Assembly (NCBI GenBank): GCA_032718475.1
Contig: JAUCBJ010009056.1
Span: forward strand, 1 to 52,087
Origin: Nemertoderma westbladi
Taxonomy: Eukaryota; Animalia; Xenacoelomorpha
Direction: 5' to 3'
DNA length: 52,087 nucleotides
The translations under genes and the position numbers were made by a program. Shown one piece after another: positions 3,690 to 42,200 of this stretch; the first letter of the stretch is position 1, and every line of letters starts with the position of its first letter. Below the pieces are notes generated by a model. The model worked only from the letters and a program-made list of their open reading frames with translations. It was not told where the DNA came from and ran no database searches.

Positions 3690-4066
3690 TAGAATACCGG
3701 TATACTTATAGTATATATAACTATATAAGTATTATTACAGACTAGGTTTATCTCAGAATACCGGTATAATTTTAGCACAAATATATATAAATATATAGTA
3801 GGCCTATCGGAATACCGGTATACAGCTTACAGTTTGTAGTATATATAATTCTGGACTAGAATTAATTACAAGTACCGGTATAATTTCAGCCTAAATTTAT
3901 AGAAATAAAGATAATAGGCCTATCGTAAATACCGGTATGCAGTTTACACTTATAGTGTATATATATAAGTATAATTACAAACTAGAATTAATTACAAGTA
4001 CCGGTATAATTTCAGCCGAAATTTATAGAAATAAAGATAATAGGCCTATCGTAAATACCGGTATAT
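3690..4066. repeat. Imperfect AT-rich tandem repeat anchored on TACCGGTA
   Basis: Seven TACCGGTA motifs at ~55-70 bp spacing; 3856-3938 is nearly identical to 3982-4064. Confidence 0.75.
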
Positions 4067-15200: not shown

Positions 15201-18200
15201 ATCGGAATGATGCAGGAGCCACTGTGGTGTAGTGGTTAGCATACCTGAACGTTTATCGGAAGACGCGGGTTCGATCCTCGCTGGTGGCGAATTTATTTTT
15301 TCCGCTCCATTTGCTATAGAGTTGGATCATCCTAAGTCCTGTTTCAATTTCTTATAATTTATACAATCTCATGGATGTTAAAACATAAACAATAATAATA
15401 TATAATAATACAATATAATAATTCATTGATCATCAATAATAGAACAATTAAACAAAACCTTCCGGACAACGAGATCAAGAAATCAGTTGAATCCTTGAAG
15501 CTCCATGACGACAATCCCATCACTCCAAGTACATCGAAGCAAAAGGCCCTGTGCAAAGTCCTCGATGAGGCTAAGTTCGACAACCTCATAAACAAGACAG
15601 AGTCTGATTACCTCCTAGCTCGGCTTCATGGTGCCGCAGCACCTGGGTCAGGTGACTGGCTGAAAGCCAACCCCTCGGGATCATTGGGTCAGCGTCTTTC
15701 CGGCGAACTTCTTCGGATCGCTACTTCTGTCCGACTAGGAGCTAAAGTCCATGTTCAGCACAGTTGTACTTCGGGATCTACTTGTGATTCACTGGGTCTC
15801 CACTCTTTAGTTTGCAAAAAATTGCCTGGCAGACAAGCAAGGCACCGTCAGGCTCTGAGGGAGGCGATACGATCAGCGGATATACCCAAATACTCTTGAG
15901 CCTGTTATCCCTTTCCGACAATAAGCGCCCCGAAAGATCGACATTAGTCCCTTGGGCATCTGGCAAACCGTCTGAGCGTTGCTTTTTTTTTAAAGCGTGA
16001 TTCTAACTTTTAACTTGGCCTACATACATTATTACGTTTAACTTACTTTATTACTTTTAACTTACGTACTTCTACTTTTTAAAATTCAATTTGTGATTTT
16101 AACTAATTAAGATTTTACATAATTGAATTAATTAATTAATAAAAAATGATATAATTTATTAATATGTAGAGTTGGTGTGGCATAGGTGGGACTGTTTTTG
16201 TGGCACAAATTAAGTGCAAACTAATTATAAAAAAAATTTCAAATTAAGGCTTCAAAGTAAAAGGGCCCCAAAACAATCACAAAGATTAAAGACCCAAAAT
16301 ATAATACAATAATGAAAGGAGCTATCAGTTTGTTAACAATAATTACAAACACACAACAAACGCATCTCATAAAGTAGTTTATTTACCTGCTGTATTGGAA
16401 TAGGAATGGGTCCGAGTTTCACGGTATTAGAAGTTCCTTTACCAGCGATAGTCAGTGAATAATAAGCGCAGGCGACACCGAACTCCAAAATAACGAACGC
16501 TAAACAGCAGGTGAGCCTCTGTAAAGTTAAGTTATACCGTCGGGAAATAAACGAAAATAAATTGAAAAATAACATCCAAGGAAGGCCAAATAAAAGGGCA
16601 GATAAAAACAAATAATCATATATGTCACAACTATTTCCATATAGACGAGTAAAGGGACTTGCGATTGGTCATTCTTCTTAATTAACTGTACACGAGTAAC
16701 TTGTGATTGGTCAACCTTCTTAATTAACTGTACACGAGTAACTTGTGATTGGTCAACCTTCTTAATTAACTGTACACGAGTAACTTGTGATTGGTCATCT
16801 TTCTTAACTGTACAAGAGTAACTTGTGATTGGTCAACCTTCTTAATTAACTGTACACGAGTAACTTGTGATTGGTCAACCTTCTTAATTAACTGTACACG
16901 AGTAACTTGTGATTGGTCAACCTTCTTAATTAACTGTACACGAGTAACTTGTGATTGGTCATCTTTCTTACCTGAACGCGAGTAAATGGACTTGTGATTG
17001 GTAATCTTTCTTACCTGAACGCGAGTAAATGGACTTGTGATTGGCCGCAGGAACACGGAAAGGTAAATATGCTCATCGGAAATCATATCATGCGACTTGT
17101 TGTCAAAAAGCATATTAAACCCGGTTTGGTCTACAGAGGAAGCAACGGCTAAACGGCGGGAAATCTAAAATGGAGGAAAATAAATAATTTTTGTTACATT
17201 TATATCAACTTAACAGCGAATTACTCTTAAAGCTGCAAAGTTCTTTGGGGACCTCATTGCCTCTGCTTTTGGGGGCGCATGCGTCCAGCGCGAGGTTACC
17301 CTGGCATCCGGTTACCTGGACAGAAGGGGCCGCGAGGTAAGGGGAGTTAGGGCGGATCTCCTGGCTTCGGCTTTGGGGATGGTGCGGGTCTGCGGGGCAA
17401 TGACCTCGTAGACTGATATTAATCCCCGGTGCACCCCCTTTTTTAATTGTATTGTTTATATCTTTTTAATTTTATTGTTCTGATAGGTGGTGGGAATTTG
17501 GTGCAGTTTTATATTGATTAATTAAATATACTTACATATACTTTTTTATTATTAACAATATAAAATATAATATTTAGAGAAAATTGATTGATTTTTAATT
17601 GTTATTGAGCGGTACCGGTTATCAAATAGTCAAGTAGTTTAAATTAAATTGAATTGATATTAAAGGATGTTATTTCTATTAATAAATATCAAATTAAATA
17701 TAATAATGTTAGTATTTAATTATCATACCTCACAATCGTCTCTATCGAAAGCCAACCACCTGTTACATATAAACACGAATTTATTCCCGGTTTGTATATC
17801 TCGAATCGATATAAAGTTTAAGTACCAACTCTTGGAGTACCCGTCCCCAGAATTATCGTGCCAGATGTTTAAAGCCTTCAAGGGGCCCAGATGTCTGAAA
17901 TATTATAAATAACTGAATATTATAACGCTGTGGCAGTAACAACAAACATTTATTTCAAAAATAATATAGAAAATAACAACAGAGAGCATATAAGGAGTGA
18001 TAAAAAATAGAAAATATAGAAAAAGTGGAAAATATAGAAAAAATAGAAAATATAGAACAAAAAAATATACATAAGAAACTACATTTTTCTACTTTTCCAC
18101 TTTTCAGTGACAAGAATCACTGCCGTTTTTTTTATCTTACACTAAACTTCTAGAACACTAGCTCGCCTCTTTATAGAAAATTTGAATAACTTGCACACCA

Positions 18201-21200
18201 TTTGATTCCAAATTAAAATAATCGTAAACCGAGACAAAACAACCCATGCTATAAAATTTCAGATCATATGTCTTCGGGCCCAGAATATTGACCCAGAATA
18301 GACTCGGACTGGCTCTATAAATTAACTTAGACATTATTTAATTAATATTGTTCAGAATATCATTGCTTGCTATTAATGATATTATTTATCTAACTTATTG
18401 AGGTAAAACTATACACTTACACTTACACCTATACACTTAAATGCGCAAATTGACTTGTGTTTTTATGACGATTCGTGCATTTGTTCTTCTAGCCCTATAT
18501 TACATGGTTGCCATGGATTCAATGTAATCCAATATATATATGCAGTTTAGAATTACGAAACAGAGATTGTGACATGGGTACCAAGGTACGTTGTCATGGG
18601 TACCAAGGTACGTTGTCATGAGTACCAAGGTACGTTGAGCTATAAAACATCTAAATCTAAATTGTATACCTAATGCTAAAACTCGACTATTAGTAAGACT
18701 TATCTGTCCTTATATGGGCATGGAATGTATCTAACTATCTATATATTTAGCTAAAACTCGACTATTAGTAAGACTTCTCTGTCCTTATATGGGCATGGGA
18801 TATATCTAACTATCTATATATTTAGCTAAAACTCGACTATTAGTAAGACTTATCTGTCCTTATATGGGCATGGAATGTATCTAACTATCTATATATTTAG
18901 CTAAAACTCGACTATTAGTAAGACTTATCTGTCCTTATATGGGCATGGAATATATCTAACTATCTATATATTTAGCTAAAACTCGACTATTAGTAAGACT
19001 TCTCTGTCCTTATATGGGCATGGAATATATCTAACTATCTATCTATATCTCACTACTCACTGTTTGGTTCCCAAAAGGAAGGTGTTGAGTTGATTCATAC
19101 AGAAGGTTCGACGTTTAGGATCAGATAATATTCTCGCACCTGTTGAGAAATTCTCCCCGTAAATATCGCAGAAAACTCTGGATTTCGTACCGGCGTTGAA
19201 TTTCATTCCAGTCTGAACGGCAATCTCGTAATAATAATTGCAATTCGGATCGTTATCCGCTAGGGGGCATACACCAATCTGTATAGCAAAGGTGATAAAC
19301 GTTATTACCAGTAACAAAATAACTTAATTTTTGCGCGCGGTATTATAAAAGGAAGTTATCTTGTTTATTGTTTTGGTAATAACAACATGTTAATTTAACC
19401 TGCTATTTTCCTCTAATTAATAATTAACTTTGTTAATTAGTCGAGATGGAAAGCTGGATAATTGAACTAACCTGCATATACCAATCAAAAGTAAGACAAT
19501 AATTTACCAAAAGAGTTTGTATTAGTAACATATTGATTAAATTGTCTTTGTCCCTAAGGGATCCGAACTAACCAGTTCTTTGTCCCTAAGGGATCCGAAC
19601 TAACCAGTTCTTTGTCTCTGATATCTTTTCTTCTCGCCCAGATTAGTAGCAACGCGTAAATCCAAAATATCGAGAATATGAGAATATACAAAGGGTACAT
19701 AACGAGGAAGTCAAAGTTGAGACTCTCAAAGTTAATTGGAGGGGGTAAAGGGAACAAGGTTGAGGTGAATGTTGATAAATGGGTGCACAAACATTCAGAA
19801 ACATCTGTATTCGTGTGTGAACCAACCTAAAATAAATTAAAATTAAATTATTCTGGATCTAGATTTCTTACAATTCGCCCCCTAGCGGCCGACATAGGAA
19901 CTAGTAGTCAGTATGTGTTTATAGTATAATTTATAATAATAATAATAATATATACACCCCCAGCGGGGTAAATGGTTTTACAAGTGATTAATCTAGTAAA
20001 ATCCGTAATTTAATTTAAAATATATTATATGGTGCATTCAAATAATAGTAAAAGTTAATAAAAATATTTATATATATAATATATATATATAAATATAAAT
20101 TAAAAATAGTTAATTCCTTGAGGCCAGTTCGGCGAGAGGCGGGCAAACAGGGCAGTTGAGTGCGTGGTACCGGGTTGGAGGCAGTGGCGGCAGATACAGT
20201 CGGGCGGAATGGGGTGGAACGGGGATGATGTCTTGCATATAAGATGGTGGAACCCATGCGAAGTGGCGCGGGTTATGTGGTGGCGGTTACGCTGCCCGGC
20301 GAGTTTTCAGACTGAGCTGTAGAAGCCTGGGCCGGAGGCGTAGTGTTCATTCGGATAGTATAATTTATAAACTTTATATTCCACGTTACGACAATGGGGA
20401 CAAGGGAATATATAAACAAACAGCTTAAACGCTAGTATGTCAGAGACCTGTTGTTATTTAAAAGATAACGGATGTGTGATGATAAAACAACGAGATATGT
20501 TCTAAATTCCGGTAAATAATTGAAATACAAAATCTCTTATTTAACCTGAAGGAGCCCGGTGGTAGGGCGATAACGTTTGTTTGCTGAATAAAATGTTATT
20601 TGCCGGTGTTTAGACCCTAAATCTCGTTGTTATTTCAACACCCATCCGTTATGTTTAACATTAGAATACTGGCGCGGGCATACCACTTCATATCTTATTT
20701 TATAAAGATGGCAGTGACTGGCGCAGTTCGCAGATATCAAACCCTATTAGATATATATTAGATAGATATCAAACCAGTTCAGCAAATGGAAAGTCTCCAG
20801 TAAACAACTAATTATCTTACCACGCATCCCTTGTACCTCCATTCATTACTTACCACGCATCCCTTGGACATCCATTCATTACTTACCACACATCCCTTGG
20901 ACATCCATTCATTACTTACCACGCATCCCTTGGACCTCCATTCATTACTTACCACGCATCCCTTGGACATCCATTCATTACTTACCACACATCCCTTGGA
21001 CATCCATTCATTACTTACCACGCATCCCTTGGACATCCATTCATTACTTACCACGCATCCCTTGGACATCCATTCATTACTTACCACGCATCCCTTGGAC
21101 ATCCATTCATTACTTACCACGCATCCCTTGGACATCCATTCATTACTTACCACGCATCCCTTGGACATCCATTCATTACTTACCACGCATCCCTTGGACA

Positions 21201-24200
21201 TCCATTCATTACTTACCACGCATCCCTTGGACATCCATTCATTACTTACCACGCATCCCTTGGACATCCATTCATTACTTACCACGCATCCCTTGGACAT
21301 CCATTCATTACTTACCACGCATCCCTTGGACATCCATTCATTACTTACCACGCATCCCTTGGACATCCATTCATTACTTACCACGCATCCCTTGGACATC
21401 CATTCATTACTTACCACGCATCCCTTGGACATCCATTCATTACTTACCACGCATCCCTTGGACATCCATTCATTACTTACCACGCATCCCTTGGACATCC
21501 ATTCATTACTTACCACGCATCCCTTGGACATCCATTCATTACTTACCACGCATCCCTTGGACATCCATTCATTACTTACCACGCATCCCTTGGACATCCA
21601 TTCATTACTTACCACGCATCCCTTGGACATCCATTCATTACTTACCACGCATCCCTTGGACATCCATTCATTACTTACCACGCATCCCTTGGACATCCAT
21701 TCATTACTTACCACGCATCCCTTGGACATCCATTCATTACTTACCACGCATCCCTTGGACATCCATTCATTACTTACCACGCATCCCTTGGACATCCATT
21801 CATTACTTACCACGCATCCCTTGGACATCCATTCATTACTTACCACGCATCCCTTGGACATCCATTCATTACTTACCACGCATCCCTTGGACATCCATTC
21901 ATTACTTACCACGCATCCCTTGGACATCCATTCATTACTTACCACGCATCCCTTGGACATCCATTCATTACTTACCACGCATCCCTTGGACATCCATTCA
22001 TTACTTACCACGCATCCCTTGGACATCCATTCATTACTTACCACGCATCCCTTGGACATCCATTCATTACTTACCACGCATCCCTTGGACATCCATTCAT
22101 TACTTACCACGCATCCCTTGGACATCCATTCATTACTTACCACGCATCCCTTGGACATCCATTCATTACTTACCACGCATCCCTTGGACATCCATTCATT
22201 ACTTACCACGCATCCCTTGGACATCCATTCATTACTTACCACGCATCCCTTGGACATCCATTCATTACTTACCACGCATCCCTTGGACATCCATTCATTA
22301 CTTACCACGCATCCCTTGGACATCCATTCATTACTTACCACGCATCCCTTGGACATCCATTCATTACTTACCACGCATCCCTTGGACATCCATTCATTAC
22401 TTACCACGCATCCCTTGGACATCCATTCATTACTTACCACGCATCCCTTGGACATCCATTCATTACTTACCACGCATCCCTTGGACATCCATTCATTACT
22501 TACCACGCATCCCTTGGACATCCATTCATTACTTACCACGCATCCCTTGGACATCCATTCATTACTTACCACGCATCCCTTGGACATCCATTCATTACTT
22601 ACCACGCATCCCTTGGACATCCATTCATTACTTACCACGCATCCCTTGGACATCCATTCATTACTTACCACGCATCCCTTGGACATCCATTCATTACTTA
22701 CCACGCATCCCTTGGACATCCATTCATTACTTACCACGCATCCCTTGGACATCCATTCATTACTTACCACGCATCCCTTGGACATCCATTCATTACTTAC
22801 CACGCATCCCTTGGACATCCATTCATTACTTACCACGCATCCCTTGGACATCCATTCATTACTTACCACGCATCCCTTGGACATCCATTCATTACTTACC
22901 ACGCATCCCTTGGACATCCATTCATTACTTACCACGCATCCCTTGGACATCCATTCATTACTTACCACGCATCCCTTGGACATCCATTCATTACTTACCA
23001 CGCATCCCTTGGACATCCATTCATTACTTACCACGCATCCCTTGGACATCCATTCATTACTTACCACGCATCCCTTGGACATCCATTCATTACTTACCAC
23101 GCATCCCTTGGACATCCATTCATTACTTACCACGCATCCCTTGGACATCCATTCATTACTTACCACGCATCCCTTGGACATCCATTCATTACTTACCACG
23201 CATCCCTTGGACATCCATTCATTACTTACCACGCATCCCTTGGACATCCATTCATTACTTACCACGCATCCCTTGGACATCCATTCATTACTTACCACGC
23301 ATCCCTTGGACCTCCATTCATTACTTACCACGCATCCCTTGGACATCCATTCATTACTTACCACGCATCCCTTGGACATCCATTCATTACTTACCACGCA
23401 TCCCTTGGACATCCATTCATTACTTACCACGCATCCCTTGGACATCCATTCATTACTTACCACGCATCCCTTGGACATCCATTCATTACTTACCACGCAT
23501 CCCTTGGACATCCATTCATTACTTACCACGCATCCCTTGGACATCCATTCATTACTTACCACGCATCCCTTGGACATCCATTCATTACTTACCACGCATC
23601 CCTTGGACATCCATTCATTACTTACCACGCATCCCTTGGACATCCATTCATTACTTACCACGCATCCCTTGGACATCCATTCATTACTTACCACGCATCC
23701 CTTGAACATCCATTCATTACTTACCACGCATCCCTTGGACATCCATTCATTACTTACCACGCATCCCTTGGACATCCATTCATTACTTACCACGCATCCC
23801 TTGAACATCCATTCATTACTTACCACGCATCCCTTGGACATCCATTCATTACTTACCACGCATCCCTTGGACATCCATTCATTACTTACCACGCATCCCT
23901 TGGACATCCATTCATTACTTACCACGCATCCCTTGGACATCCATTCATTACTTACCACGCATCCCTTGGACATCCATTTATTACTTACCACGCATCCCTT
24001 GAACATCCATTCATTACTTACCACGCATTCCTTGGACATCCATTCATTACTTACCACGCATCCCTTGGACATCCATTCATTACTTACCACGCATCCCTTG
24101 GACATCCATTCATTACTTACCACGCATCCCTTGGACATCCATTCATTACTTACCACGCATCCCTTGGACATCCATTCATTACTTACCACGCATCCCTTGG

Positions 24201-27200
24201 ACATCCATTCATTACTTACCACGCATCCCTTGGACATCCATTCATTACTTACCACGCATCCCTTGTACCTCCATTCATTACTTACCACGCATCCCTTGGA
24301 CATCCATTCATTACTTACCACGCATCCCTTGGACATCCATTCATTACTTACCACGCATCCCTTGGACATCCATTCATTACTTACCACGCATCCCTTGGAC
24401 ATCCATTCATTACTTACCACGCATCCCTTGGACATCCATTCATTCCTTACCACGCATCCCTTGGACATCCATTCATTACTTACCACGAATCCCTTGGACA
24501 TCCATTCATTACTTACCACGCATCCCTTGGACATCCATTCATTACTTACCACGCATCCATTGGACATCCATTCATTACTTACCACGCATCCCTTGGACAT
24601 CCATTTATTACTTACCACGCATCCCTTGAACATCCATTCATTACTTACCACGCATTCCTTGGACATCCATTCATTACTTACCACGCATCCCTTGGACATC
24701 CATTTATTACTTACCACGCATCCCTTGAACATCCATTCATTACTTACCACGCATTCCTTGGACATCCATTCATTACTTACCACGCATCCCTTGGACATCC
24801 ATTCATTACTTACCACGCATCCCTTGGACATCCATTCATTACTTACCACGCATCCCTTGGACATCCATTTATTACTTACCACGCATCCCTTGGACATCCA
24901 TTTATTACTTACCACGCATCCCTTGAACATCCATTCATTACTTACCACGCATTCCTTGGACATCCATTCATTACTTACCACGCATCCCTTGGACATCCAT
25001 TCATTACTTACCACGCATCCCTTGGACATCCATTCATTACTTACCACGCGCCATTGGACATCCATTCATTACTTACCACGCATCCCTTGGACATCCATTT
25101 ATTACTTACCACGCATCCCTTGGACATCCATTTATTACTTACCACGCATCCCTTGAACATCCATTCATTACTTACCACGCATTCCTTGGACATCCATTCA
25201 TTACTTACCACGCATCCCTTGGACATCCATTCATTACTTACCACGCATCCCTTGGACATCCATTCATTACTTACCACGCATCCCTTGGACATCCATTCAT
25301 TACTTACCACGCATCCCTTGGACATCCATTCATTACTTACCACGCGCCATTGGACATCCATTCATTACTTACCACGCATCCCTTGGACATCCATTTATTA
25401 CTTACCACGCATCCCTTGAACATCCATTCATTACTTACCACGCATTCCTTGGACATCCATTCATTACTTACCACGCATCCCTTGGACATCCATTCATTAC
25501 TTACCACGCATCCCTTGGACATCCATTCATTACTTACCACGCATCCCTTGGACATCCATTCATTACTTACCACGCATCCCTTGGACATCCATTCATTACT
25601 TACCACGCGCCATTGGACATCCATTCATTACTTACCACGCATCCCTTGGACATCCATTTATTACTTACCACGCATCCCTTGAACATCCATTCATTACTTA
25701 CCACGCATTCCTTGGACATCCATTCATTACTTACCACGAATCCCTTGGACATCCATTCATTACTTACCACGCATCCCTTGGACATCCATTCATTACTTAC
25801 CACGCATCCCTTGGACATCCATTCATTACTTACCACGCATCCCTTGGACATCCATTCATTACTTACCACGCATCCCTTGGACATCCATTCATTACTTACC
25901 ACGCGCCATTGGACATCCATTCATTACTTACCACGCATTCCTTCGACATCCATTCATTACTTACCACGTATCCCTTGGACATCCATTCATTACTTACCAC
26001 GCGCCATTGGACATCCATTCATTCCTTACCACGCATCCCTTGGACATCCATTCATTACTTACCACGAATCCCTTGGACATCCATTCATTACTTACCACGC
26101 ATCCCTTGGACATCCATTCATTACTTACCACGCATCCCTTGGACATCCATTCATTACTTACCACGCATCCCTTGGACATCCATTCATTACTTACCACGCG
26201 CCATTGGACATCCATTCATTACTTACCACGCATTCCTTCGACATCCATTCATTACTTACCACGCATCCCTTGGACATCCATTCATTACTTACCACGCATC
26301 CCTTGGACATCCATTCATTACTTACCACGTATCCCTTGGACATCCATTCATTACTTACCACGCGCCATTGGACATCCATTCATTCCTTACGACGCATCCC
26401 TTGGACATCCATTCATTACTTACCACGAATCCCTTGGACATCCATTCATTACTTACCACGCATCCCTTGGACATCCATTCATTACTTACCACGCATCCCT
26501 TGGACATCCATTCATTACTTACCACGCATCCCTTGGACATCCATTCATTACTTACCACGCATCCCTTGGACATCCATTCATTACTTACCACGCATCCCTT
26601 GGACATCCATTCATTACTTACCACGCATCCCTTGGACATCCATTCATTACTTACCACGCGCCATTGGACATCCATTCATTACTTACCACGCATTCCTTCG
26701 ACATCCATTCATTACTTACCACGTATCCCTTGGACATCCATTCATTACTTACCACGCATCCCTTGGACATCCATTCATTACTTACCACGCATCCCTTGGA
26801 CATCCATTCATTACTTACCACGCATCCCTTGGACATCCATTCATTACTTACCACGCATCCCTTGGACATCCATTCATTACTTACCACGCATCCCTTGGAC
26901 ATCCATTCATTACTTACCACGCGCCATTGGACATCCATTCATTACTTACCACGCATCCCTTGGACATCCATTCATTACTTACCACGCATCCCTTGGACAT
27001 CCATTCATTACTTACCACGCATCCCTTGGACATCCATTCATTACTTACCACGCATCCCTTGGACATCCATTCATTACTTACCACGCATCCCTTGGACATC
27101 CATTCATTACTTACCACGCATCCCTTGGACATCCATTCATTACTTACCACGCATCCCTTGGACATCCATTTATTACTTACCACGCATCCCTTGGACATCC

Positions 27201-30200
27201 ATTCATTACTTACCACGCATCCCTTGGACATCCATTCATTACTTACCACGCATCCCTTGGACATCCATTCATTACTTACCACGCATCCCTTGGACATCCA
27301 TTCATTACTTACCACACATCCCTTGGACATCCATTCATTACTTACCACGCATCCCTTGGACATCCATTCATTACTTACCACGCATCCCTTGGACATCCAT
27401 TCATTACTTACCACGCATCCCTTGGACATCCATTCATTACTTACCACGCATCCCTTGGACATCCATTCATTACTTACCACGCATCCCTTGGACATCCATT
27501 CATTACTTACCACGCATCCCTTGGACATCCATTCATTACTTACCACGCATCCCTTGGACATCCATTCATTACTTACCACGCGCCATTGGACATCCATTCA
27601 TTACTTACCACGCATTCCTTCGACATCCATTCATTACTTACCACGTATCCCTTGGACATCCATTCATTACTTACCACGCGCCATTGGACATCCATTCATT
27701 CCTTACCACGCATCCCTTGGACATCCATTCATTACTTACCACGAATCCCTTGGACATCCATTCATTACTTACCACGCATCCCTTGGACATACATTCATTA
27801 CTTACCACGCATCCCTTGGACATCCATTCATTACTTACCACGCATCCCTTGGACATCCATTCATTACTTACCACGCGCCATTGGACATCCATTCATTACT
27901 TACCACGCATTCCTTCGACATCCATTCATTACTTACCACGCATCCCTTGGACATCCATTCATTACTTACCACGCATCCCTTGGACATCCATTCATTACTT
28001 ACCACGTATCCCTTGGACATCCATTCATTACTTACCACGCGCCATTGGACATCCATTCATTCCTTACCACGCATCCCTTGGACATCCATTCATTACTTAC
28101 CACGAATCCCTTGGACATCCATTCATTACTTACCACGCATCCCTTGGACATCCATTCATTACTTACCACGCATCCCTTGGACATCCATTCATTACTTACC
28201 ACGCATCCCTTGAACATCCATTCATTACTTACCACGCATCCCTTGGACATCCATTCATTACTTACCACGCATCCCTTGGACATCCATTCATTACTTACCA
28301 CGCATCCCTTGGACATCCATTCATTACTTACCACGCGCCATTGGACATCCATTCATTACTTACCACGCATTCCTTCGACATCCATTCATTACTTACCACG
28401 TATCCCTTGGACATCCATTCATTACTTACCACGCATCCCTTGGACATCCATTCATTACTTACCACGCATCCCTTGGACATCCATTCATTACTTACCACGC
28501 ATCCCTTGGACATCCATTCATTACTTACCACGCATCCCTTGGACATCCATTCATTACTTACCACGCATCCCTTGGACATCCATTCATTACTTACCACGCG
28601 CCATTGGACATCCATTCATTACTTACCACGCATCCCTTGGACATCCATTCATTACTTACCACGCATCCCTTGGACATCCATTCATTACTTACCACGCATC
28701 CCTTGGACATCCATTCATTACTTACCACGCATCCCTTGGACATCCATTCATTACTTACCACGCATCCCTTGGACATCCATTCATTACTTACCACGCATCC
28801 CTTGGACATCCATTCATTACTTACCACGCATCCCTTGGACATCCATTCATTACTTACCACGCATCCCTTGGACATCCATTCATTACTTACCACGCATCCC
28901 TTGGACATCCATTCATTACTTACCACGCATCCCTTGGACATCCATTCATTACTTACCACGCATCCCTTGGACATCCATTCATTACTTACCACGCATCCCT
29001 TGGACATCCATTCATTACTTACCACGCATCCCTTGGACATCCATTCATTACTTACCACGCATCCCTTGGACATCCATTCATTACTTACCACGCATCCCTT
29101 GGACATCCATTCATTACTTACCACGCATCCCTTGGACATCCATTCATTACTTACCACGCATCCCTTGGACATCCATTCATTACTTACCACGCATCCCTTG
29201 GACATCCATTCATTACTTACCACGCATCCCTTGGACATCCATTCATTACTTACCACGCATCCCTTGGACATCCATTCATTACTTACCACGCATCCCTTGG
29301 ACATCCATTCATTACTTACCACGCATCCCTTGGACATCCATTCATTACTTACCACGCATCCCTTGGACATCCATTCATTACTTACCACGCATCCCTTGGA
29401 CATCCATTCATTACTTACCACGCATCCCTTGGACATCCATTCATTACTTACCACGCATCCCTTGGACATCCATTCATTACTTACCACGCATCCCTTGGAC
29501 ATCCATTCATTACTTACCACGCATCCCTTGGACATCCATTCATTACTTACCACGCATCCCTTGGACATCCATTCATTACTTACCACGCATCCCTTGGACA
29601 TCCATTCATTACTTACCACGCATCCCTTGGACATCCATTCATTACTTACCACGCGCCATTGGACATCCATTCATTACTTACCACGCATCCCTTGGACATC
29701 CATTCATTACTTACCACGCATCCCTTGGACATCCATTCATTACTTACCACGCATCCCTTGGACATCCATTCATTACTTACCACGCATCCCTTGGACATCC
29801 ATTCATTACTTACCACGCATCCCTTGGACATCCATTCATTACTTACCACGCATCCCTTGGACATCCATTCATTACTTACCACGCATCCCTTGGACATCCA
29901 TTCATTACTTACCACGCATCCCTTGGACATCCATTCATTACTTACCACGCATCCCTTGGACATCCATTCATTACTTACCACGCATCCCTTGGACATCCAT
30001 TCATTACTTACCACGCATCCCTTGGACATCCATTCATTACTTACCACGCATCCCTTGGACATCCATTCATTACTTACCACGCATCCCTTGGACATCCATT
30101 CATTACTTACCACGCATCCCTTGGACATCCATTCATTACTTACCACGCATCCCTTGGACATCCATTCATTACTTACCACGCATCCCTTGGACATCCATTC

Positions 30201-33200
30201 ATTACTTACCACGCATCCCTTGGACATCCATTCATTACTTACCACGCATCCCTTGGACATCCATTCATTACTTACCACGCATCCCTTGGACATCCATTCA
30301 TTACTTACCACGCATCCCTTGGACATCCATTCATTACTTACCACGCATCCCTTGGACATCCATTCATTACTTACCACGCATCCCTTGGACATCCATTCAT
30401 TACTTACCACGCATCCCTTGGACATCCATTCATTACTTACCACGCATCCCTTGGACATCCATTCATTACTTACCACGCATCCCTTGGACATCCATTCATT
30501 ACTTACCACGCAGCCCTTGGACATCCATTCATTACTTACCACGCATCCCTTGGACATCCATTCATTACTTACCACGTATCCCTTGGACATCCATTCATTA
30601 CTTACCACGCGCCATTGGACATCCATTCATTCCTTACCACGCATCCCTTGGACATCCATTCATTACTTACCACGAATCCCTTGGACATCCATTCATTACT
30701 TACCACGCATCCCTTGGACATCCATTCATTACTTACCACGCATCCCTTGGACATCCATTCATTACTTACCACGCATCCCTTGGACATCCATTCATTACTT
30801 ACCACGCGCCATTGGACATCCATTCATTACTTACCACGCATTCCTTCGACATCCATTCATTACTTACCACGCATCCCTTGGACATCCATTCATTACTTAC
30901 CACGCATCCCTTGGACATCCATTCATTACTTACCACGTATCCCTTGGACATCCATTCATTACTTACCACGCGCCATTGGACATCCATTCATTCCTTACCA
31001 CGCATCCCTTGGACATCCATTCATTACTTACCACGCATCCCTTGGACATCCATTCATTACTTACCACGCATCCCTTGGACATCCATTCATTACTTACCAC
31101 GCATCCCTTGGACATCCATTCATTACTTACCACGCATCCCTTGGACATCCATTCATTACTTACCACGCATCCCTTGGACATCCATTCATTACTTACCACG
31201 CATCCCTTGGACATCCATTCATTACTTACCACGCATCCCTTGGACATCCATTCATTACTTACCACGCGCCATTGGACATCCATTCATTACTTACCACGCA
31301 TTCCTTCGACATCCATTCATTACTTACCACGTATCCCTTGGACATCCATTCATTACTTACCACGCATCCCTTGGACATCCATTCATTACTTACCACGCAT
31401 CCCTTGGACATCCATTCATTACTTACCACGCATCCCTTGGACATCCATTCATTACTTACCACGCATCCCTTGGACATCCATTCATTACTTACCACGCATC
31501 CCTTGGACATCCATTCATTACTTACCACGCGCCATTGGACATCCATTCATTACTTACCACGCATCCCTTGGACATCCATTCATTACTTACCACGCATCCC
31601 TTGGACATCCATTCATTACTTACCACGCATCCCTTGGACATCCATTCATTACTTACCACGCATCCCTTGGACATCCATTCATTACTTACCACGCATCCCT
31701 TGGACATCCATTCATTACTTACCACGCATCCCTTGGACATCCATTCATTACTTACCACGCATCCCTTGGACATCCATTCATTACTTACCACGCATCCCTT
31801 GGACATCCATTCATTACTTACCACGCATCCCTTGGACATCCATTCATTACTTACCACGCATCCCTTGGACATCCATTCATTACTTACCACGCATCCCTTG
31901 GACATCCATTCATTACTTACCACGCATCCCTTGGACATCCATTCATTACTTACCACGCATCCCTTGGACATCCATTCATTACTTACCACGCATCCCTTGG
32001 ACATCCATTCATTACTTACCACGCATCCCTTGGACATCCATTCATTACTTACCACGCATCCCTTGGACATCCATTCATTACTTACCACGCATCCCTTGGA
32101 CATCCATTCATTACTTACCACGCATCCCTTGGACATCCATTCATTACTTACCACGCATCCCTTGGACATCCATTCATTACTTACCACGCATCCCTTGGAC
32201 ATCCATTCATTACTTACCACGCATCCCTTGGACATCCATTCATTACTTACCACGCATCCCTTGGACATCCATTCATTACTTACCACGCATCCCTTGGACA
32301 TCCATTCATTACTTACCACGCGCCATTGGACATCCATTCATTACTTACCACGCATCCCTTGGACATCCATTCATTACTTACCACGCATCCCTTGGACATC
32401 CATTCATTACTTACCACGCATCCCTTGGACATCCATTCATTACTTACCACGCATCCCTTGGACATCCATTCATTACTTACCACGCATCCCTTGGACATCC
32501 ATTCATTACTTACCACGCATCCCTTGGACATCCATTCATTACTTACCACGCATCCCTTGGACATCCATTCATTACTTACCACGCATCCCTTGGACATCCA
32601 TTCATTACTTACCACGCATCCCTTGGACATCCATTCATTACTTACCACGCATCCCTTGGACATCCATTCATTACTTACCACGCATCCCTTGGACATCCAT
32701 TCATTACTTACCACGCATCCCTTGGACATCCATTCATTACTTACCACGCATCCCTTGGACATCCATTCATTACTTACCACGCATCCCTTGGACATCCATT
32801 CATTACTTACCACGCATCCCTTGGACATCCATTCATTACTTACCACGCATCCCTTGGACATCCATTCATTACTTACCACGCATCCCTTGGACATCCATTC
32901 ATTACTTACCACGCATCCCTTGGACATCCATTCATTACTTACCACGCATCCCTTGGACATCCATTCATTACTTACCACGCATCCCTTGGACATCCATTCA
33001 TTACTTACCACGCATCCCTTGGACATCCATTCATTACTTACCACGCATCCCTTGGACATCCATTCATTACTTACCACGCATCCCTTGGACATCCATTCAT
33101 TACTTACCACGCATCCCTTGGACATCCATTCATTACTTACCACGCATCCCTTGGACATCCATTCATTACTTACCACGCATCCCTTGGACATCCATTCATT

Positions 33201-36200
33201 ACTTACCACGCATCCCTTGGACATCCATTCATTACTTACCACGCATCCCTTGGACATCCATTCATTACTTACCACGCATCCCTTGGACATCCATTCATTA
33301 CTTACCACGCATCCCTTGGACATCCATTCATTACTTACCACGCATCCCTTGGACATCCATTCATTACTTACCACGCATCCCTTGGACATCCATTCATTAC
33401 TTACCACGCATCCCTTGGACATCCATTCATTACTTACCACGCATCCCTTGGACATCCATTCATTACTTACCACGCATCCCTTGGACATCCATTCATTACT
33501 TACCACGCATCCCTTGGACATCCATTCATTACTTACCACGCATCCCTTGGACATCCATTCATTACTTACCACGCATCCCTTGGACATCCATTCATTACTT
33601 ACCACGCATCCCTTGGACATCCATTCATTACTTACCACGCATCCCTTGGACATCCATTCATTACTTACCACGCATCCCTTGGACATCCATTCATTACTTA
33701 CCACGCATCCCTTGGACATCCATTCATTACTTACCACGCATCCCTTGGACATCCATTCATTACTTACCACGCATCCCTTGGACATCCATTCATTACTTAC
33801 CACGCATCCCTTGGACATCCATTCATTACTTACCACGCATCCCTTGGACATCCATTCATTACTTACCACGCATCCCTTGGACATCCATTCATTACTTACC
33901 ACGCATCCCTTGGACATCCATTCATTACTTACCACGCATCCCTTGGACATCCATTCATTACTTACCACGCATCCCTTGGACATCCATTCATTACTTACCA
34001 CGCGCCATTGGACATCCATTCATTACTTACCACGCATCCCTTGGACATCCATTCATTACTTACCACGCATCCCTTGGACATCCATTCATTACTTACCACG
34101 CATCCCTTGGACATCCATTCATTACTTACCACGCATCCCTTGGACATCCATTCATTACTTACCACGCATCCCTTGGACATCCATTCATTACTTACCACGC
34201 ATCCCTTGGACATCCATTCATTACTTACCACGCATCCCTTGGACATCCATTCATTACTTACCACGCATCCATTGGACATCCATTCATTACTTACCACGCA
34301 TCCCTTGGACATCCATTCATTACTTACCACGCATCCCTTGGACATCCATTCATTACTTACCACGCATCCCTTGGACATCCATTCATTACTTACCACGCAT
34401 CCCTTGGACATCCATTCATTACTTACCACGCATCCCTTGGACATCCATTCATTACTTACCACGCATCCCTTGGACATCCATTCATTACTTACCACGCATC
34501 CCTTGGACATCCATTCATTACTTACCACGCATCCCTTGGACATCCATTCATTACTTACCACGCATCCCTTGGACATCCATTCATTACTTACCACGCATCC
34601 CTTGGACATCCATTCATTACTTACCACGCATCCCTTGGACATCCATTCATTACTTACCACGCATCCCTTGGACATCCATTCATTACTTACCACGCATCCC
34701 TTGGACATCCATTCATTACTTACCACGCATCCCTTGGACATCCATTCATTACTTACCACGCATCCCTTGGACATCCATTCATTACTTACCACGCATCCCT
34801 TGGACATCCATTCATTACTTACCACGCATCCCTTGGACATCCATTCATTACTTACCACGCATCCCTTGGACATCCATTCATTACTTACCACGCATCCCTT
34901 GGACATCCATTCATTACTTACCACGCATCCCTTGGACATCCATTCATTACTTACCACGCATCCCTTGGACATCCATTCATTACTTACCACGCATCCCTTG
35001 GACATCCATTCATTACTTACCACGCATCCCTTGGACATCCATTCATTACTTACCACGCATCCCTTGGACATCCATTCATTACTTACCACGCATCCCTTGG
35101 ACATCCATTCATTACTTACCACGCATCCCTTGGACATCCATTCATTACTTACCACGCATCCCTTGGACATCCATTCATTACTTACCACGCATCCCTTGGA
35201 CATCCATTCATTACTTACCACGCATCCCTTGGACATCCATTCATTACTTACCACGCATCCCTTGGACATCCATTCATTACTTACCACGCATCCCTTGGAC
35301 ATCCATTCATTACTTACCACGCATCCCTTGGACATCCATTCATTACTTACCACGCATCCCTTGGACATCCATTCATTACTTACCACGCATCCCTTGGACA
35401 TCCATTCATTACTTACCACGCATCCCTTGGACATCCATTCATTACTTACCACGCATCCCTTGGACATCCATTCATTACTTACCACGCATCCCTTGGACAT
35501 CCATTCATTACTTACCACGCATCCCTTGGACATCCATTCATTACTTACCACGCATCCCTTGGACATCCATTCATTACTTACCACGCATCCCTTGGACATC
35601 CATTCATTACTTACCACGCATCCCTTGGACATCCATTCATTACTTACCACGCATCCCTTGGACATCCATTCATTACTTACCACGCATCCCTTGGACATCC
35701 ATTCATTACTTACCACGCATCCCTTGGACATCCATTCATTACTTACCACGCATCCCTTGGACATCCATTCATTACTTACCACGCATCCCTTGGACATCCA
35801 TTCATTACTTACCACGCATCCCTTGGACATCCATTCATTACTTACCACGCATCCCTTGGACATCCATTCATTACTTACCACGCATCCCTTGGACATCCAT
35901 TCATTACTTACCACGCATCCCTTGGACATCCATTCATTACTTACCACGCATCCCTTGGACATCCATTCATTACTTACCACGCATCCCTTGGACATCCATT
36001 CATTACTTACCACGCATCCCTTGGACATCCATTCATTACTTACCACGCATCCCTTGGACATCCATTCATTACTTACCACGCATCCCTTGGACATCCATTC
36101 ATTACTTACCACGCATCCCTTGGACATCCATTCATTACTTACCACGCATCCCTTGGACATCCATTCATTACTTACCACGCATCCCTTGGACATCCNNNNN

Positions 36201-39200
36201 NNNNNNNNNNNNNNNNNNNNNNNNNNNNNNNNNNNNNNNNNNNNNNNNNNNNNNNNNNNNNNNNNNNNNNNNNNNNNNNNNNNNNNNNNNNNNNNATCGT
36301 CATTGAATGATTGACAGAGAGTTGTGTAAATCGCGATAGTTAGATTGCTCATGAAGACCTAGAAAAATATATATTTAGTCAAACAAAAACATGAATGATC
36401 CATTGAGACATATTGTCTAACCTTATCTTCTATGAATGATCAATTGAGACAGATTGACTAACCTTATACTCTATGAATGATCCATTGAGACAGATTGAAC
36501 CTTATACTCTATGAATGATCTATTGAGACAGATTGAACCTTATACTCTATGAATGATCTATTGAGACAGATTGACTAACCTTATCTTCTATGAATGATCC
36601 ATTGATACAGATTGACTAACCTTATACTCTATGAATGATCCATTGAGACAGATTGACTAACCTTATACTCTATGAATGATCCATTGAGACAGATTGACTA
36701 ACCTTATACTCTATGAATGATCCATTGAGACAGATTTACTAACCTTATCCTCTATGAATGATCCATTGAGACAGATTGAACCTTATACTCTATGAATGAT
36801 CAATTGAGACAGATTGACTAACCTTATCCTCTATGAATGATCTATTGAGACAGATTGACTAACCTTATCCCCTATGAATGATCTATTTAGACAGATTGAG
36901 TAACCTTATCCCCTATGAATGATCTATTGAGACAGATTGACTAACCTTATCCCCTATGAATGATCCATTGAGACAGATTGACTTACCTTATCCTCTATGA
37001 ATGATCCATTGAGTCAGATTGACTAACCTTATACTCTATGAATGATCTATTGAGACAGATTGACTAACCTTATCCCCTATGAATGATCTATTGAGACAGA
37101 TTGACTAACCTTATACTCTATGAATGATCTATTGAGACAGATTGACTAACCTTATCCCCTATGAATGATCTATTGAGACAGATTGACTAACCTTATCCCC
37201 TATGAATGATCCATTGAGACAGATTGACTAACCTTATCCTCTATGAATGATCCATTGAGTCAGATTGACTAACCTTATCCCCTATGAATGATCCATTGAG
37301 ACAGATTGACTAACCTTATCCTCTATGAATGATCTATTGAGACAGATTGACTAACCTTATACTCTATGAATGATCTATTGAGACAGATTGACTAACCTTA
37401 TACTCTATGAATGATCTATTGAGACAGATTGACTAACCTTATCCTCTATGAATGATCCATTGAGTCAGATTGACTAACCTTATACTCTATGAATGATCTA
37501 TTGAGACAGATTGACTAACCTTATCCTCTATGAATGATCCATTGAGACAGATTGACTAACCTTATCCTCTATGAATGATCTATTAAGACAGATTGACTAA
37601 CCTTATACTCTATGAATGATCCATTGAGTCAGATTGACTAACCTTATACTCTATGAATGATCAATTGAGACAGATTGACTAACCTTATCCTCTATGAATG
37701 ATCCATTGAGACAGATTGACTAACCTTATACTCTATGAATGATCTATTGAGACAGATTGACTAACCTTATACTCTATGAATGATCCATTGAGTCAGATTG
37801 ACTAACCTTATACTCTATGAATGATCAATTGAGACAGATTGACTAACCTTATCCTCTATGAATGATCCATTGAGACAGATTGAACCTTATACTCTATGAA
37901 TGATCAATTGAGTCAGATTGACTAACCTTATCCCCTATGAATGATCCATTGAGACAGATTGACTAACCTTATCCTCTATGAATGATCTATTGAGACAGAT
38001 TGACTAACCTTATACTCTATGAATGATCCATTGAGACAGATTGACTAACCTTATACTCTATGAATGATCCATTGAGATAGATTGAACCTTATCTTCTATG
38101 AATGATCCATTGAGACAGATTGACTAACCTTATCCTCTATGAATGATCCATTGAGACAGATTGAACCTTATACTCTATGAATGATCAATTGAGACAGATT
38201 GACTAACCTTATACTCTATGAATGATCTATTGAGACAGATTGACTAACCTTATACTCTATGAATGATCCATTGAGACAGATTGACTAACCTTATCCTCTA
38301 TGAATGATCCATTGAGTCAGATTGACTAACCTTATACTCTATGAATGATCTATTGAGACAGATTGACTAACCTTATCCTCTATGAATGATCCATTGATAC
38401 AGATTGACTAACCTTATACTCTATGAATGATCTATTGAGACAGATTGACTAACCTTATCCTCTATGAATGATCTATTGAGACAGATTGACTAACCTTATA
38501 CTCTATGAATGATCTATTGAGACAGATTGACTAACCTTATACTCTATGAATGATCCATTGAGACAGATTGACTAACCTTATCCTCTATGAATGATCCATT
38601 GAGTCAGATTGACTAACCTTATCCCCTATGAATGATCCATTGAGACAGATTGACTAACCTTATCCTCTATGAATGATCCATTGAGACAGATTGAACCTTA
38701 TACTCTATGAATGATCAATTGAGTCAGATTGACTAACCTTATCCCCTATGAATGATCCATTGAGACAGATTGACTAACCTTATCCTCTATGAATGATCTA
38801 TTGAGACAGATTGACTAACCTTATACTCTATGAATGATCTATTGAGACAGATTGACTAACCTTATACTCTATGAATGAACTATTGAGACAGATTGACTAA
38901 CCTTATCCTCTATGAATGATCTATTGAGACAGATTGACTAACCTTATACTCTATGAATGATCTATTGAGACAGATTGACTAACCTTATACTCTATGAATG
39001 ATCCATTGAGACAGATTGACTAACCTTATCCTCTATGAATGATCCATTGAGTCAGATTGACTAACCTTATCCCCTATGAATGATCCATTGAGACAGATTG
39101 ACTAACCTTATCCTCTATGAATGATCTATTGAGACAGATTGACTAACCTTATACTCTATGAATGATCTATTGAGACAGATTGACTAACCTTATCCTCTAT

Positions 39201-42200
39201 GAATGATCCATTGAGATAGATTGAACCTTATCTTCTATGAATGATCCATTGAGACAGATTGACTAACCTTATACCCTATGAATGATCCATTGAGACAGAT
39301 TGACTAACCTTATCCTCTATGAATGATCCATTGAGACAGATTGACTAACCTTATCTTCTATGAATGATCCATTGAGACAGATTGACTAACCTTATACCCT
39401 ATGAATGATCCATTGAGACAGATTGACTAACCTTATCCTCTATGAATGATCCATTGATACAGATTGACTAACCTTATACTCTATGAATGATCTATTGAGA
39501 CAGATTGACTAACCTTATACTCTATGAATGATCTATTGAGACAGATTGACTAACCTTATACTCTATGAATGATCTATTGAGACAGATTGACTAACCTTAT
39601 CCTCTATGAATGATCTATTGAGACAAATTGACTAACCTTATACTCTATGAATGATCTATTGAGACAGATTGACTAACCTTATCCTCTATGAATGATCTAT
39701 TGAGACAGATTGACTAACCTTATACTCTATGAATGATCTATTGAGACAGATTGACTAACCTTATACTCTATGAATGATCTATTGAGACAGATTGACTAAC
39801 CTTATCCTCTATGAATGATCTATTGAGACAGATTGACTAACCTTATACTGTATAAATGATCTATTGAGACAGATTGACTAACCTTATACTCTATGAATGA
39901 TCCATTGAGACAGATTGACTAACCTTATCCTCTATGAATGATCCATTGAGTCAGATTGACTAACCTTATCCCCTATGAATGATCCATTGAGATAGATTGA
40001 ACCTTATCTTCTATGAATGATCCATTGAGACAGATTGACTAACCTTATACCCTATGAATGATCCATTGAGACAGATTGACTAACCTTATCCTCTATGAAT
40101 GATCCATTGAGACAGATTGACTAACCTTATCTTCTATGAATGATCCATTGAGACCGATTGACTAACCTTATACCCTATGAATGATCCATTGAGACAGATT
40201 GACTAACCTTATCCTCTATGAATGATCCATTGAGACAGATTGACTAACCTTATACCCTATGAATGATCCATTGAGACAGGTTGACTAACCTGATCCTCTA
40301 TGAATGATCCATTGAGACAGATTGACTAACCTTATACTCTATGAATGATCCATTGAGACAGATTGACTAACCTTATATTCTATGAATGATCCATTGATAG
40401 AGATTGACTAACCTTATCCTCTATGAATGATCCATTGAGACAGATTGGCTAACCTTATCCTCTATGAATGATCCATTGAGACAGATTGAACCTTATACTC
40501 TATGAATGATCCATTGAGACAGATTGACTAACCTTATACTCTATGAATGATCCATTGAGACAGATTGAACCTTATACTCTATGAATGATCTATTGAGACA
40601 GATTGACTAACCTTATACTCTATGAATGATCCATTGAGACAGATTGACTAACCTTATCCTCTATGAATGATCCATTGAGACAGATTGACTAACCTTATAT
40701 TCTATGAATGATCCATTGATAGAGATTGACTAACCTTATCCTCTATGAATGATCCATTGAGACAGATTGACTAACCTTATACTCTATGAATGATCCATTG
40801 AGACAGATTGACTAACCTTATACTCTATGAATGATCCATTGAGACAGATTGAACCTTATACTCTATGAATGATCTATTGAGACAGATTGACTAACCTTAT
40901 ACTCTATGAATGATCCATTGAGACAGATTGACTAACCTTATCCTCTATGAATGATCCATTGAGACAGATTGACTAACCTTATATTCTATGAATGATCCAT
41001 TGATAGAGATTGACTAACCTTATCCTCTATGAATGATCCATTGAGACAGATTGACTAACCTTATACTCTATGAATGATCCATTGAGACAGATTGACTAAC
41101 CTTATCCTCTATGAATGATCCATTGAGACAGATTGACTAACCTTATATTCTATGAATGATCCATTGATAGAGATTGACTAACCTTATCCTCTATGAACGG
41201 CTCCGAGCTGTAGAACTTTCTAGGATTTCTGTGACGAGGTTTTATCCCAATGTAGTAAATACCTTCATCCATTAGAATGTTGTTATCAAAGAAAGCCGCG
41301 TATTTATTTGGATAAAATTCTCCAGGATGTCTCGATGATTCTGTGATTAAATAATATATTAGTAATTGAAGCGATATCCAATAATACTTAAATTAGGGGA
41401 AACAATAGAGGCGGTTCAGCTGGATAAATTAGAAACCTACAGTGACCAAAACTCCCTGACAGTTAACTTACGCAAAACAAAGGTTGTATAATTCCGAACA
41501 GGTGGCCGTCTCCCCGCAAATGATTAAATTGATTTACAAGGGTCAGCCAATCGAATTGGTCAACAGTTTATTTAGTTACAAGGGTCAGCCAATCGAATGG
41601 GTCAACAGTTTATTTACTTACAAGGGTCAGCCAATCGAATGGGTCAACAGTTTATTTACTTACAAGGGTCACCAGTTTAATTACTTAGGGGTGGTCCTCT
41701 CGACAAAAAATGGCGCCGCAGGACATTATTACCACCTGAAAAACCATGGAATAGCATCATGTATGCGACTGGCGACAAAAGTTGACCTCAGTTCAATTTC
41801 CCTAGCATCCGCACATAAACTCTGGTCTCATGTAATTCTACCCGCCGTTACATATGGTTGCCCCATTTTTGACCCCAGCATGGGTAACCCCAATCTACAG
41901 TCACACAGTTTAGACCACGTTATTAAAAGTCCGGGGTTTTTACTGGAAGCTGCGGAGTGGCCTAAGTACCACCGCTTGTGCTCGACCGCACATACACAGC
42001 CATAATCACGATACTATTTTACATTTTTATCACTAGGCCTATATGTACGACTTTCATATTTGTGTCCATTTAATTATTTTTAATTTACTATTAATTATTA
42101 TAATACTGTTGGGGCCTACATCCACTTCGGATATATTGAAATAAATATAAACCATCATTATTTTGAAAATTTAATTAATCTACTGCACATGTTTGTGGCG

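What the first reader, a model, noticed from the sequence alone, without database searches (positions are those of the whole stretch)
20816..36358. 15.4-kb in-frame donor array inside the GPS autoproteolysis motif
Seen: the unit is 27 exon-like nt (NEWMSKGCV) plus exactly GTAAGT, 33 nt long and stop-free in the exon frame. The frame stays open for about 66 units below the gap, until the first 32-bp variant near 34005. Each of these donors would splice in phase 0 to VGSH...CLCTHL/STF. Established: the GPS W..GC and CxCxHL/T segments form the disulfide-bonded cleavage site of the GAIN domain. Inference: donor choice could add 0 to ~66 Cys/Trp-containing SNEWMSKGCVV repeats, changing ectodomain length or cleavage, while more distal donors would give stop-containing, NMD-type transcripts. 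How a donor is chosen among hundreds of identical ones is an open question.
Basis: partly seen in the sequence, partly recalled or inferred. Interest (0 to 1): 0.9.

Follow-up and report, generated by a model that had tools for sequence, protein, structure and literature searches.

The report
Splice donor copied 467 times
In an animal polycystin-1-like gene, a 33-base piece matching the end of one exon plus its splice signal is repeated at least 467 times, and three other splice signals in the same gene are repeated out of frame, so this is likely an unusually large but known kind of intron repeat in which the cell would use the first signal, not a dial for protein length.

Summary
The array is real: 20811-36195, 33-nt unit, 467 visible GTAAG donors, of which the first 66 would join in frame without a stop. 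It lies in a phase-0 intron that splits the GPS motif of a PKD1-like gene. The true first donor is hidden in a 100-N gap. The length-dial reading is not supported. Four of 18 donors in this gene are tandemly duplicated; at the other three (41, 32, 43 nt) the second donor gives a stop or frameshift, so an intact protein needs first-donor use, including across 117 donor-like copies in the intron just upstream. An in-frame unit is a one-in-three chance. All 31 relatives with a full GPS carry one W..G[C] segment, and a one-copy model aligns to them as one domain. The class is known: human F7, CBS, ABCA7 and amphioxus 'mirages', where the first donor dominates and leakage reaches one or two units. 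No RNA run could be listed, so donor choice here is untested. What stands out is the size, and that 6 of 8 long-period arrays in this gene start at a donor.

The parts
20811..36195 (-). 33-bp minisatellite, at least 466 whole units; each unit is a copy of the exon end (NEWMSKGCV) plus a GTAAG(T) donor
33999..36195 (-). Exon-proximal visible part: 66 donors that would splice in frame and stop-free; ends with the first 32-nt unit (34030-33999); first stop at 33997
20816..20820 (-). Last donor copy (GTAAG, continuing ATAATT); likely the original start of the intron (inferred)
36196..36295 (.). 100-N assembly gap that hides the authentic exon end, the first donor and an unknown number of units
36296..36358 (-). 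Visible 5' part of the exon whose end is copied (21 codons, holds the first GPS cysteine); starts in phase 0
19605..19826 (-). Next exon: second half of the GPS (CLCTHL|STF) and first transmembrane segment; starts in phase 0
36391..41197 (-). 41-bp donor-spanning minisatellite (118 copies; 117 AAG|GT, 101 AAG|GTTAGT) filling the intron just upstream; out of frame, with a stop in the first unit
41183..41340 (-). Exon whose last 15 nt seed the 41-bp array; ends in phase 0
19545..19616 (-). 32-bp donor-spanning duplication (2.2 copies), out of frame
16657..17044 (-). 43-bp donor-spanning duplication (2.3 copies) running on into a 42-bp array; out of frame
42572..44922 (-). 40-bp array (59 copies) starting 34 nt downstream of the donor at 44956; does not include the donor
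18675..19046 (-). 75-bp array (5 copies) starting 15 nt downstream of the donor at 19061; does not include the donor
7197..48772 (-). Host gene: hand-built 18-exon model of a PKD1-like (polycystin-1 family) gene, partial at both ends; 329 codons above the gap and 605 below, without a stop

Best explanation
This is a tandem array of a 33-base unit matching an exon end plus its splice donor, inside an intron of a polycystin-1-like gene; it likely arose by a local duplication across the donor, likely grew by slippage and unequal exchange without selection for its reading frame, and is predicted to be spliced out whole from the first donor. Shown: the array, its content, its place in the GPS-splitting intron, three more donor duplications in the same gene that are out of frame, and block-wise repetition of variant units. 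Inferred: the seed duplication was guided by a few shared bases on either side of the donor; the most upstream donor wins, as in F7, so the mRNA carries one W..GC segment and a normal GPS; trace use of the second or third donor (+11 or +22 residues) is possible and would be noise. That same first-donor rule would explain why such duplications survive at donors (4 of 18) and are not seen at acceptors (0 of 18) in this gene.
For: 4 of 18 donors are tandemly duplicated, 0 of 18 acceptors. At the 41-, 32- and 43-nt repeats the second donor gives a stop or frameshift, yet the model is open over 329 + 605 codons using first donors; the intron just upstream has 117 AAG|GT copies. One of four unit lengths is a multiple of three, as chance gives. 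31 of 31 relatives with W..G[CLVI] upstream of CxCxHL have it once, 29 of 31 at a spacing of 12 residues, which is the spacing that one copy gives here. The one-copy model aligns as one domain over profile positions 13-280 (242 bits); models with 2 to 65 copies split into two or more domains. 80 of 86 short genomic fragments of relatives have Q or K just before the VG stretch, against 6 of 32 full-length GPS segments, which points to an old acceptor at this place. Variant units repeat in blocks (18 matches at lag 51; highest value in 300 shuffles 9) and both ends are homogeneous, the far end more so. 10 of 14 distinct substitutions change the residue, among them W to C, C to Y and C to F. Precedents: F7 (only the most upstream site used, with 1 to 12 monomers; PMC1557585), amphioxus mirages (RT-PCR suggests no interference with splicing; PMC3087553), ABCA7 (retention of one unit, not dependent on length; PMC5954066).
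Against: Donor use in this organism was not observed. The first donor lies in the gap, so it is not shown to be intact or equal to the later ones; in F7 a disabled first site hands over to the next. The precedent experiments are mammalian or amphioxus and, for F7, reach 12 monomers, not hundreds. IFI6 (6-16) and CBS use two downstream sites as well (PMC1557585 introduction). Total profile scores for 2 to 5 copies (241-245 bits) are no lower than for one copy, so the profile score alone does not penalise insertions. The substitution count is a weak test: nearly all variants lie beyond unit 66, and 4 of 14 silent changes is not below the 17 of 99 expected. No variant touches GTAAG in 467 copies (chance about 0.065). 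The donor-versus-background contrast is modest: 203 of 2705 sampled positions outside the three large arrays also have a nearby duplicate. Amphioxus mirages also occur at acceptors, so the donor-only pattern is not universal.
Confidence: 0.72

Rival explanations
1. Splice dial: downstream in-frame donors are used at real frequency and insert 11-residue Cys/Trp repeats into the GPS, changing folding, cleavage or ectodomain reach, while distal donors feed nonsense-mediated decay.
For: 66 visible donors are in frame and stop-free, and the first 65 units hold one variant only. All donors are equally strong and close to consensus. IFI6, CBS and ABCA7 do leak to the second or third site. This is the only one of the gene's four donor duplications in which leakage would escape a frameshift, which may have let it grow largest.
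Against: The far end has a longer frameshift-free run (128 units) than the exon end. No relative has a repeated W..GC segment (0 of 31). F7 pseudo-sites that would keep the frame are not used. The GPS turn depends on two disulfides and close packing, and one substitution can cause ER retention (PMC4810088), so extra Cys-bearing units would more likely misfold than tune (inference). Exons of 0.1 to 2.3 kb would have to be defined by identical donors.
Confidence: 0.07
2. The array is a burden: it lowers splicing efficiency, promotes skipping of the roughly 95-nt exon between the two large donor arrays, or sits in a gene that is weakly expressed or losing function. Skipping would be in frame, because both flanking introns are phase 0, and would remove the first half of the GPS.
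For: Arrays fill 57% of the modelled gene span. The exon is flanked by 117 and 467 donor-like sites. In ABCA7, skipping of a flanking exon rises with repeat length; in F7 skipping appears when upstream donors are disabled. LINE-like fragments also lie in introns.
Against: All 18 modelled exons keep canonical boundaries and an open frame, with the four GPS cysteines and the HL|S tripeptide in place.
Confidence: 0.13
3. The size or the placement is partly an assembly artefact: the array is collapsed or inflated, or the join across the 100-N gap is wrong.
For: The array abuts a 100-N gap. 379 of 466 units are identical, with runs of 57 and 69 identical units near the two ends. No reads could be laid.
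Against: Variant units form ordered blocks that exceed all 300 shuffles, which read noise would not produce. The 3' end runs into unique intron sequence without a gap. The sequence above the gap and the unit below it are collinear with relatives with one residue missing.
Confidence: 0.08

Closest known systems
Human F7 intron 7 37-bp VNTR (Borensztajn et al. 2006, PMC1557585; parts 1-4 of 6 read: abstract, introduction, results, first part of the discussion); the same introduction lists IFI6 (6-16), CBS, LMNB2 and PDGF
   Same: First monomer spans the exon-intron boundary, so an identical donor is repeated down the intron.
   Different: F7 has 5-9 copies and the other listed genes 10-25 or so; here at least 467. 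F7 copies 4 exon nt; here 27-28 coding nt, in frame. Donor use was measured for F7, not here.
Amphioxus 'mirages' in Adh3 and globin genes (Ebner et al. 2010, PMC3087553; six passages read; the original Adh3 paper PMC117041 was not held)
   Same: Minisatellite-like tandem duplications of exon-intron boundaries in an invertebrate, at several loci, with concerted evolution inside the cluster and diverged edge units.
   Different: The globin clusters described have 2-6 units and include acceptor-side cases; here up to 467 units, and all four boundary duplications are at donors.
Human ABCA7 intron 18 25-bp VNTR (De Roeck et al. 2018, PMC5954066; six passages read)
   Same: Array starts at the donor, each unit begins with the donor GT, alleles reach at least 9.7 kb; one-unit retention is seen.
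   Different: Unit is intronic and out of frame; here the unit is mostly coding sequence and in frame. Its length-dependent effect is skipping of the next exon, not a ladder.
Polycystin-1-like proteins (PKD1L2/PKD1L3 type) with a GAIN/GPS domain (review PMC4810088, 12 passages read)
   Same: GPS with W..GC and CxCxHL|S, then a transmembrane segment and a PLAT domain; 8 of 10 relatives looked up are named PKD1-like.
   Different: No relative has a repeated GPS segment; the best identity to the query exon among the 150 listed hits is 48%, so no close orthologue was available.

Membership tests
Donor-spanning minisatellite (F7 IVS7 type, 'mirage') | Repeat unit holds the exon's last bases plus the donor | tested here: met
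   Unit encodes the W..GC segment that relatives have at this place, followed by GTAAG(T) in phase 0
Donor-spanning minisatellite (F7 IVS7 type, 'mirage') | Head-to-tail copies run into the intron downstream of the exon | tested here: met
   466.9 copies, 20811-36195, ending 985 nt before the next acceptor
Donor-spanning minisatellite (F7 IVS7 type, 'mirage') | First unit is continuous with the authentic exon | tested here: inconclusive
   The junction is in the 100-N gap; collinearity with relatives across the gap supports it. Seen directly for the 41-, 32- and 43-nt repeats
Donor-spanning minisatellite (F7 IVS7 type, 'mirage') | Most upstream donor is the one mainly used | not testable with these tools
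   No RNA run was listed
Donor-spanning minisatellite (F7 IVS7 type, 'mirage') | Copy number varies between alleles (VNTR) | not testable with these tools
   One haplotype only; no genome held
Polycystin-1-like (PKD1L) gene | GPS motif with four cysteines and HL|T/S just before the first transmembrane segment | tested here: met
   One-copy model aligns as one domain, 242 bits, to a profile of 25 relatives' segments; Pfam GPS on the repeat alone is weak, E 0.057, below cut-off
Polycystin-1-like (PKD1L) gene | PLAT/LH2 domain after the first transmembrane segment | tested here: met
   PF01477 E 6.3e-9, above cut-off, on exon 17729-17893; E 0.0045, below cut-off, on exon 19061-19278
Polycystin-1-like (PKD1L) gene | Polycystin domain and channel-like C-terminal part | tested here: inconclusive
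   PF20519 E 0.022, below cut-off, on exon 7197-7374; tblastn of relatives hits the same exon collinearly; later exons were not found in the window
Polycystin-1-like (PKD1L) gene | REJ module in the ectodomain | tested here: inconclusive
   No Pfam hit on the six upstream exons scanned singly; the gene's 5' part was not located
Polycystin-1-like (PKD1L) gene | Autoproteolysis at the GPS | not testable with these tools
   Motif present; cleavage needs a protein experiment
   Proximal 65 units are open, but the distal 128 are too; 10 of 14 substitutions change residues, mostly outside the proximal part

The most novel reading that the evidence does not exclude
Because this is the one donor array in the gene that is in frame, leakage past the first donor yields a stable ladder of isoforms with extra Cys/Trp 11-mers inside the GPS, giving a splicing switch between cleavable and non-cleavable polycystin whose setting depends on array length and tissue.
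Probability: 0.07. Interest if true: 0.8.

Novelty: new member of a known kind. Interest (0 to 1): 0.28.

Why it matters
As an ordinary case it is still an extreme one: at least 467 identical donors after one exon and 117 after the previous one, against 5 to about 25 copies in the human genes listed in PMC1557585. Because the unit is in frame, leaky products would not be removed by nonsense-mediated decay, so this locus is a clean natural read-out of how strict first-donor choice is in an invertebrate. The clustering of arrays at donors (6 of 8 long-period arrays) makes a testable genome-wide prediction about where minisatellites are born or tolerated. If a regulated ladder were found, it would be a new way to control GPS cleavage.

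Tried and rejected
No whole genome is held for this window, so no genome-wide count of donor arrays was possible. No RNA holder was listed for window 16380-20800; this is no evidence on expression, and no reads could be laid. An exact scan of metagenome contigs with 24 nt of the exon next to the gap found 0 matches, so the gap stays open. A word-indexed search with exon 19605-19826 against longer proteins found none at E 0.001; the full HMMER search found 169, none the window's own product. Solved-structure search with that exon gave only two chance matches. AlphaFold2 on ten repeat units without an alignment gave mean pLDDT 36.6, which says nothing either way about a repeat fold. The plus strand of the array has long open frames in all three frames; I rejected these as a gene because the unit simply lacks stop codons on that strand and nothing else supports one. 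The 787-aa frame through the gap was rejected as an effect of the arbitrary gap length. One search used wrong coordinates for one exon; it was redone as 10248-10004 with the same counts. The array list printed held a 22-nt repeat in place of the 33-mer; the list was corrected. Paper searches for a recalled UPF3A repeat example returned 0 papers, so it is not used. PMC10078293 (12 passages) had nothing on donor-spanning units. Searches turned up no paper on an in-frame donor array of this size or in a polycystin gene, but the library lacks most subscription papers and I did not open supplements. Look-ups of earlier findings by place or sequence for this genome returned nothing.
Full report
Observation. 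The window holds a 33-bp tandem array at 20811-36195 with 466.9 copies and 98% matches. Read on the minus strand it has 467 GTAAG sites and 466 whole units, 379 identical to the consensus and 23 one base short. In the exon frame a unit reads VSNEWMSKGCV. The first short unit is number 66, starting at 34030, and the first stop follows at 33997; 66 of the 467 donors would join the next exon in frame without a stop. It understates one thing: the array begins below a 100-N gap (36196-36295). The authentic exon end, the first donor and an unknown number of units are not in the sequence, so all counts are minimums, and the frame that seems to run through the gap depends on the arbitrary gap length.

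Host gene. I built an 18-exon model on the minus strand from 48772 to 7197 with GT-AG boundaries; it is open for 329 codons above the gap and 605 below. Pfam finds PLAT on two exons (one above cut-off) and weak Polycystin_dom and GPS matches. A full HMMER search with exon 19605-19826 gave 169 hits, the listed 150 at up to 48% identity; 8 of the 10 that I looked up are named PKD1-like, and tblastn of long hits is collinear with the model. It is a polycystin-1-like gene of an animal; I did not identify the organism, and both ends of the gene are outside the model.

Place of the array. Of 140 CxCxHL-type motifs in the 150 proteins, 31 have a W..G[CLVI] segment within 40 residues upstream. All 31 have it once, and 29 have 12 residues between it and CxC; one copy spliced at GTG|GT gives 12 here. 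A profile from 25 relatives' segments aligns the one-copy model, with one unknown residue at the gap, as a single domain over positions 13-280 (242 bits). The zero-copy model scores 209. Models with 2 to 65 copies break into two or more domains, although their summed scores for 2 to 5 copies are similar. This supports the join across the gap and one copy as the native form. Among 86 short fragments of relatives that lack the upstream segment, 80 have Q or K just before the VG stretch, against 6 of 32 full segments. That is what translating into an intron's final AG would give, so the intron is likely old and the array grew at an existing donor (inference). The review PMC4810088 (passages) confirms that cleavage occurs at HL|T in a strained turn held by disulfides and hydrophobic packing.

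Not a one-off. Four of 18 donors in this gene are tandemly duplicated and 0 of 18 acceptors. The other three units are 41, 32 and 43 nt, and using their second donor gives a stop or frameshift. The 41-nt array fills the intron just upstream with 117 AAG|GT copies. If the gene makes its protein, first-donor choice must already work there. One in-frame unit among four is what chance gives, and for a phase-0 donor with five or six intron bases an in-frame unit is stop-free automatically. Two more arrays begin 15 and 34 nt after a donor, so 6 of 8 arrays with period 30 or more start within -50 to +40 of a donor (binomial P 1e-5; 5 of 7 and 1e-4 without the 33-mer; the window was chosen after seeing the data). 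Against this, the per-donor contrast with background is modest (203 of 2705 sampled positions). The edges of the arrays show short stretches shared by exon and intron (for example TTCAT at the 41-mer), which suggests slippage as the seed (inference).

Array evolution. Variant units recur in blocks, with 18 matches at lag 51 against a maximum of 9 in 300 shuffles, the pattern of unequal exchange and an argument against read noise. All 23 short units lie between units 66 and 338; the last 128 units have none, a longer clean run than the first 65. The open proximal stretch therefore needs no selection to explain it. Ten of 14 distinct substitutions change the residue, including the W and C of the motif, but this is a weak test because nearly all lie beyond unit 66. 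GTAAG is unchanged in all 467 copies, with a chance of about 0.065.

Mechanism. Most likely (0.72): a neutral donor-spanning minisatellite spliced from its first donor, with at most trace use of the next one or two. Shown are the anatomy, the neighbouring out-of-frame cases and the one-copy norm among relatives. The donor choice itself is inferred from those and from published cases. In F7, only the most upstream of identical sites is used with 1 to 12 monomers; stronger downstream sites do not compete unless they are perfect; later sites that would keep the frame are not used; a disabled first site passes to the next, with growing exon skipping (PMC1557585). IFI6 and CBS leak to two further sites. 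ABCA7 retains one unit at a rate independent of array length, with alleles up to at least 9.7 kb (PMC5954066). Amphioxus mirages do not appear to disturb splicing (PMC3087553). Rivals: a burden on splicing or a gene in decline (0.13), noting that skipping the small exon would be in frame and would remove half the GPS; an assembly artefact in size or join (0.08); a working splice dial (0.07).

Earlier scan notes. A word look-up found 21 earlier findings in at least 13 genomes, 8 shown. Several describe donor arrays, two of them in frame, and report first-donor use in RNA. I did not check those data; they are leads, not support. One pointed me to the mirage paper, which I then read.

Limits. No genome, no RNA run and no DNA across the gap were available. 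The fold of the repeat was uninformative. The literature searches cover open-licence papers only, and no supplements were opened.

Verdict. A real feature and a new, very large member of a known kind. Interest 0.28. The size, the in-frame unit and the donor clustering make it a good test locus for first-donor choice, but nothing here indicates a new mechanism.

Noticed in passing
window 50391-51605 (-): Intronless 404-aa ORF with a serpentine 7TM receptor match (PF10320, E 1.6e-7, above cut-off), upstream of and on the same strand as the PKD1-like exons. No relatives at E 0.001 in the word-indexed search. It may be nested in an intron of the PKD1-like gene, whose 5' part I did not find.
   Followed up: partly
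window 7672-9946 (-): Reverse-transcriptase fragments (PF00078, E 2.7e-18 at 8186-8695; weaker at 9149-9946 with DUF6451), likely broken LINE-like insertions in the intron between exons 10004 and 7374.
   Followed up: partly
window 1-5570 (-): Downstream of the last modelled exon: a 288-bp tandem duplication (4996-5570) and a 707-aa ORF (1455-3578) with Ala/Glu-rich repeats and no Pfam match. It looks like an inserted mobile element, which is an impression, not a test; the gene's remaining exons were not found in the window.
   Followed up: partly
window 36359-41182 (-): The 41-bp array occupies nearly the whole intron, ending 33 nt before the acceptor; before expansion the intron would have been only a few tens of bases long, and donor-like copies now lie right up to the branch-point region.
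   Followed up: partly
window 14460-14535 (-): A tRNA-like stretch inside an intron, seen by eye; possibly a SINE head or tRNA pseudogene. Not scanned.
   Followed up: no
P0001, residues 528-602 and 1288-1365: This relative has two GPS-TM-PLAT blocks in one predicted protein, possibly two fused gene models.
   Followed up: no
window 20811-36195 (+): The plus strand of the array is open in all three frames for thousands of codons, a property of the unit; automatic gene callers could mistake it for a gene.
   Followed up: yes
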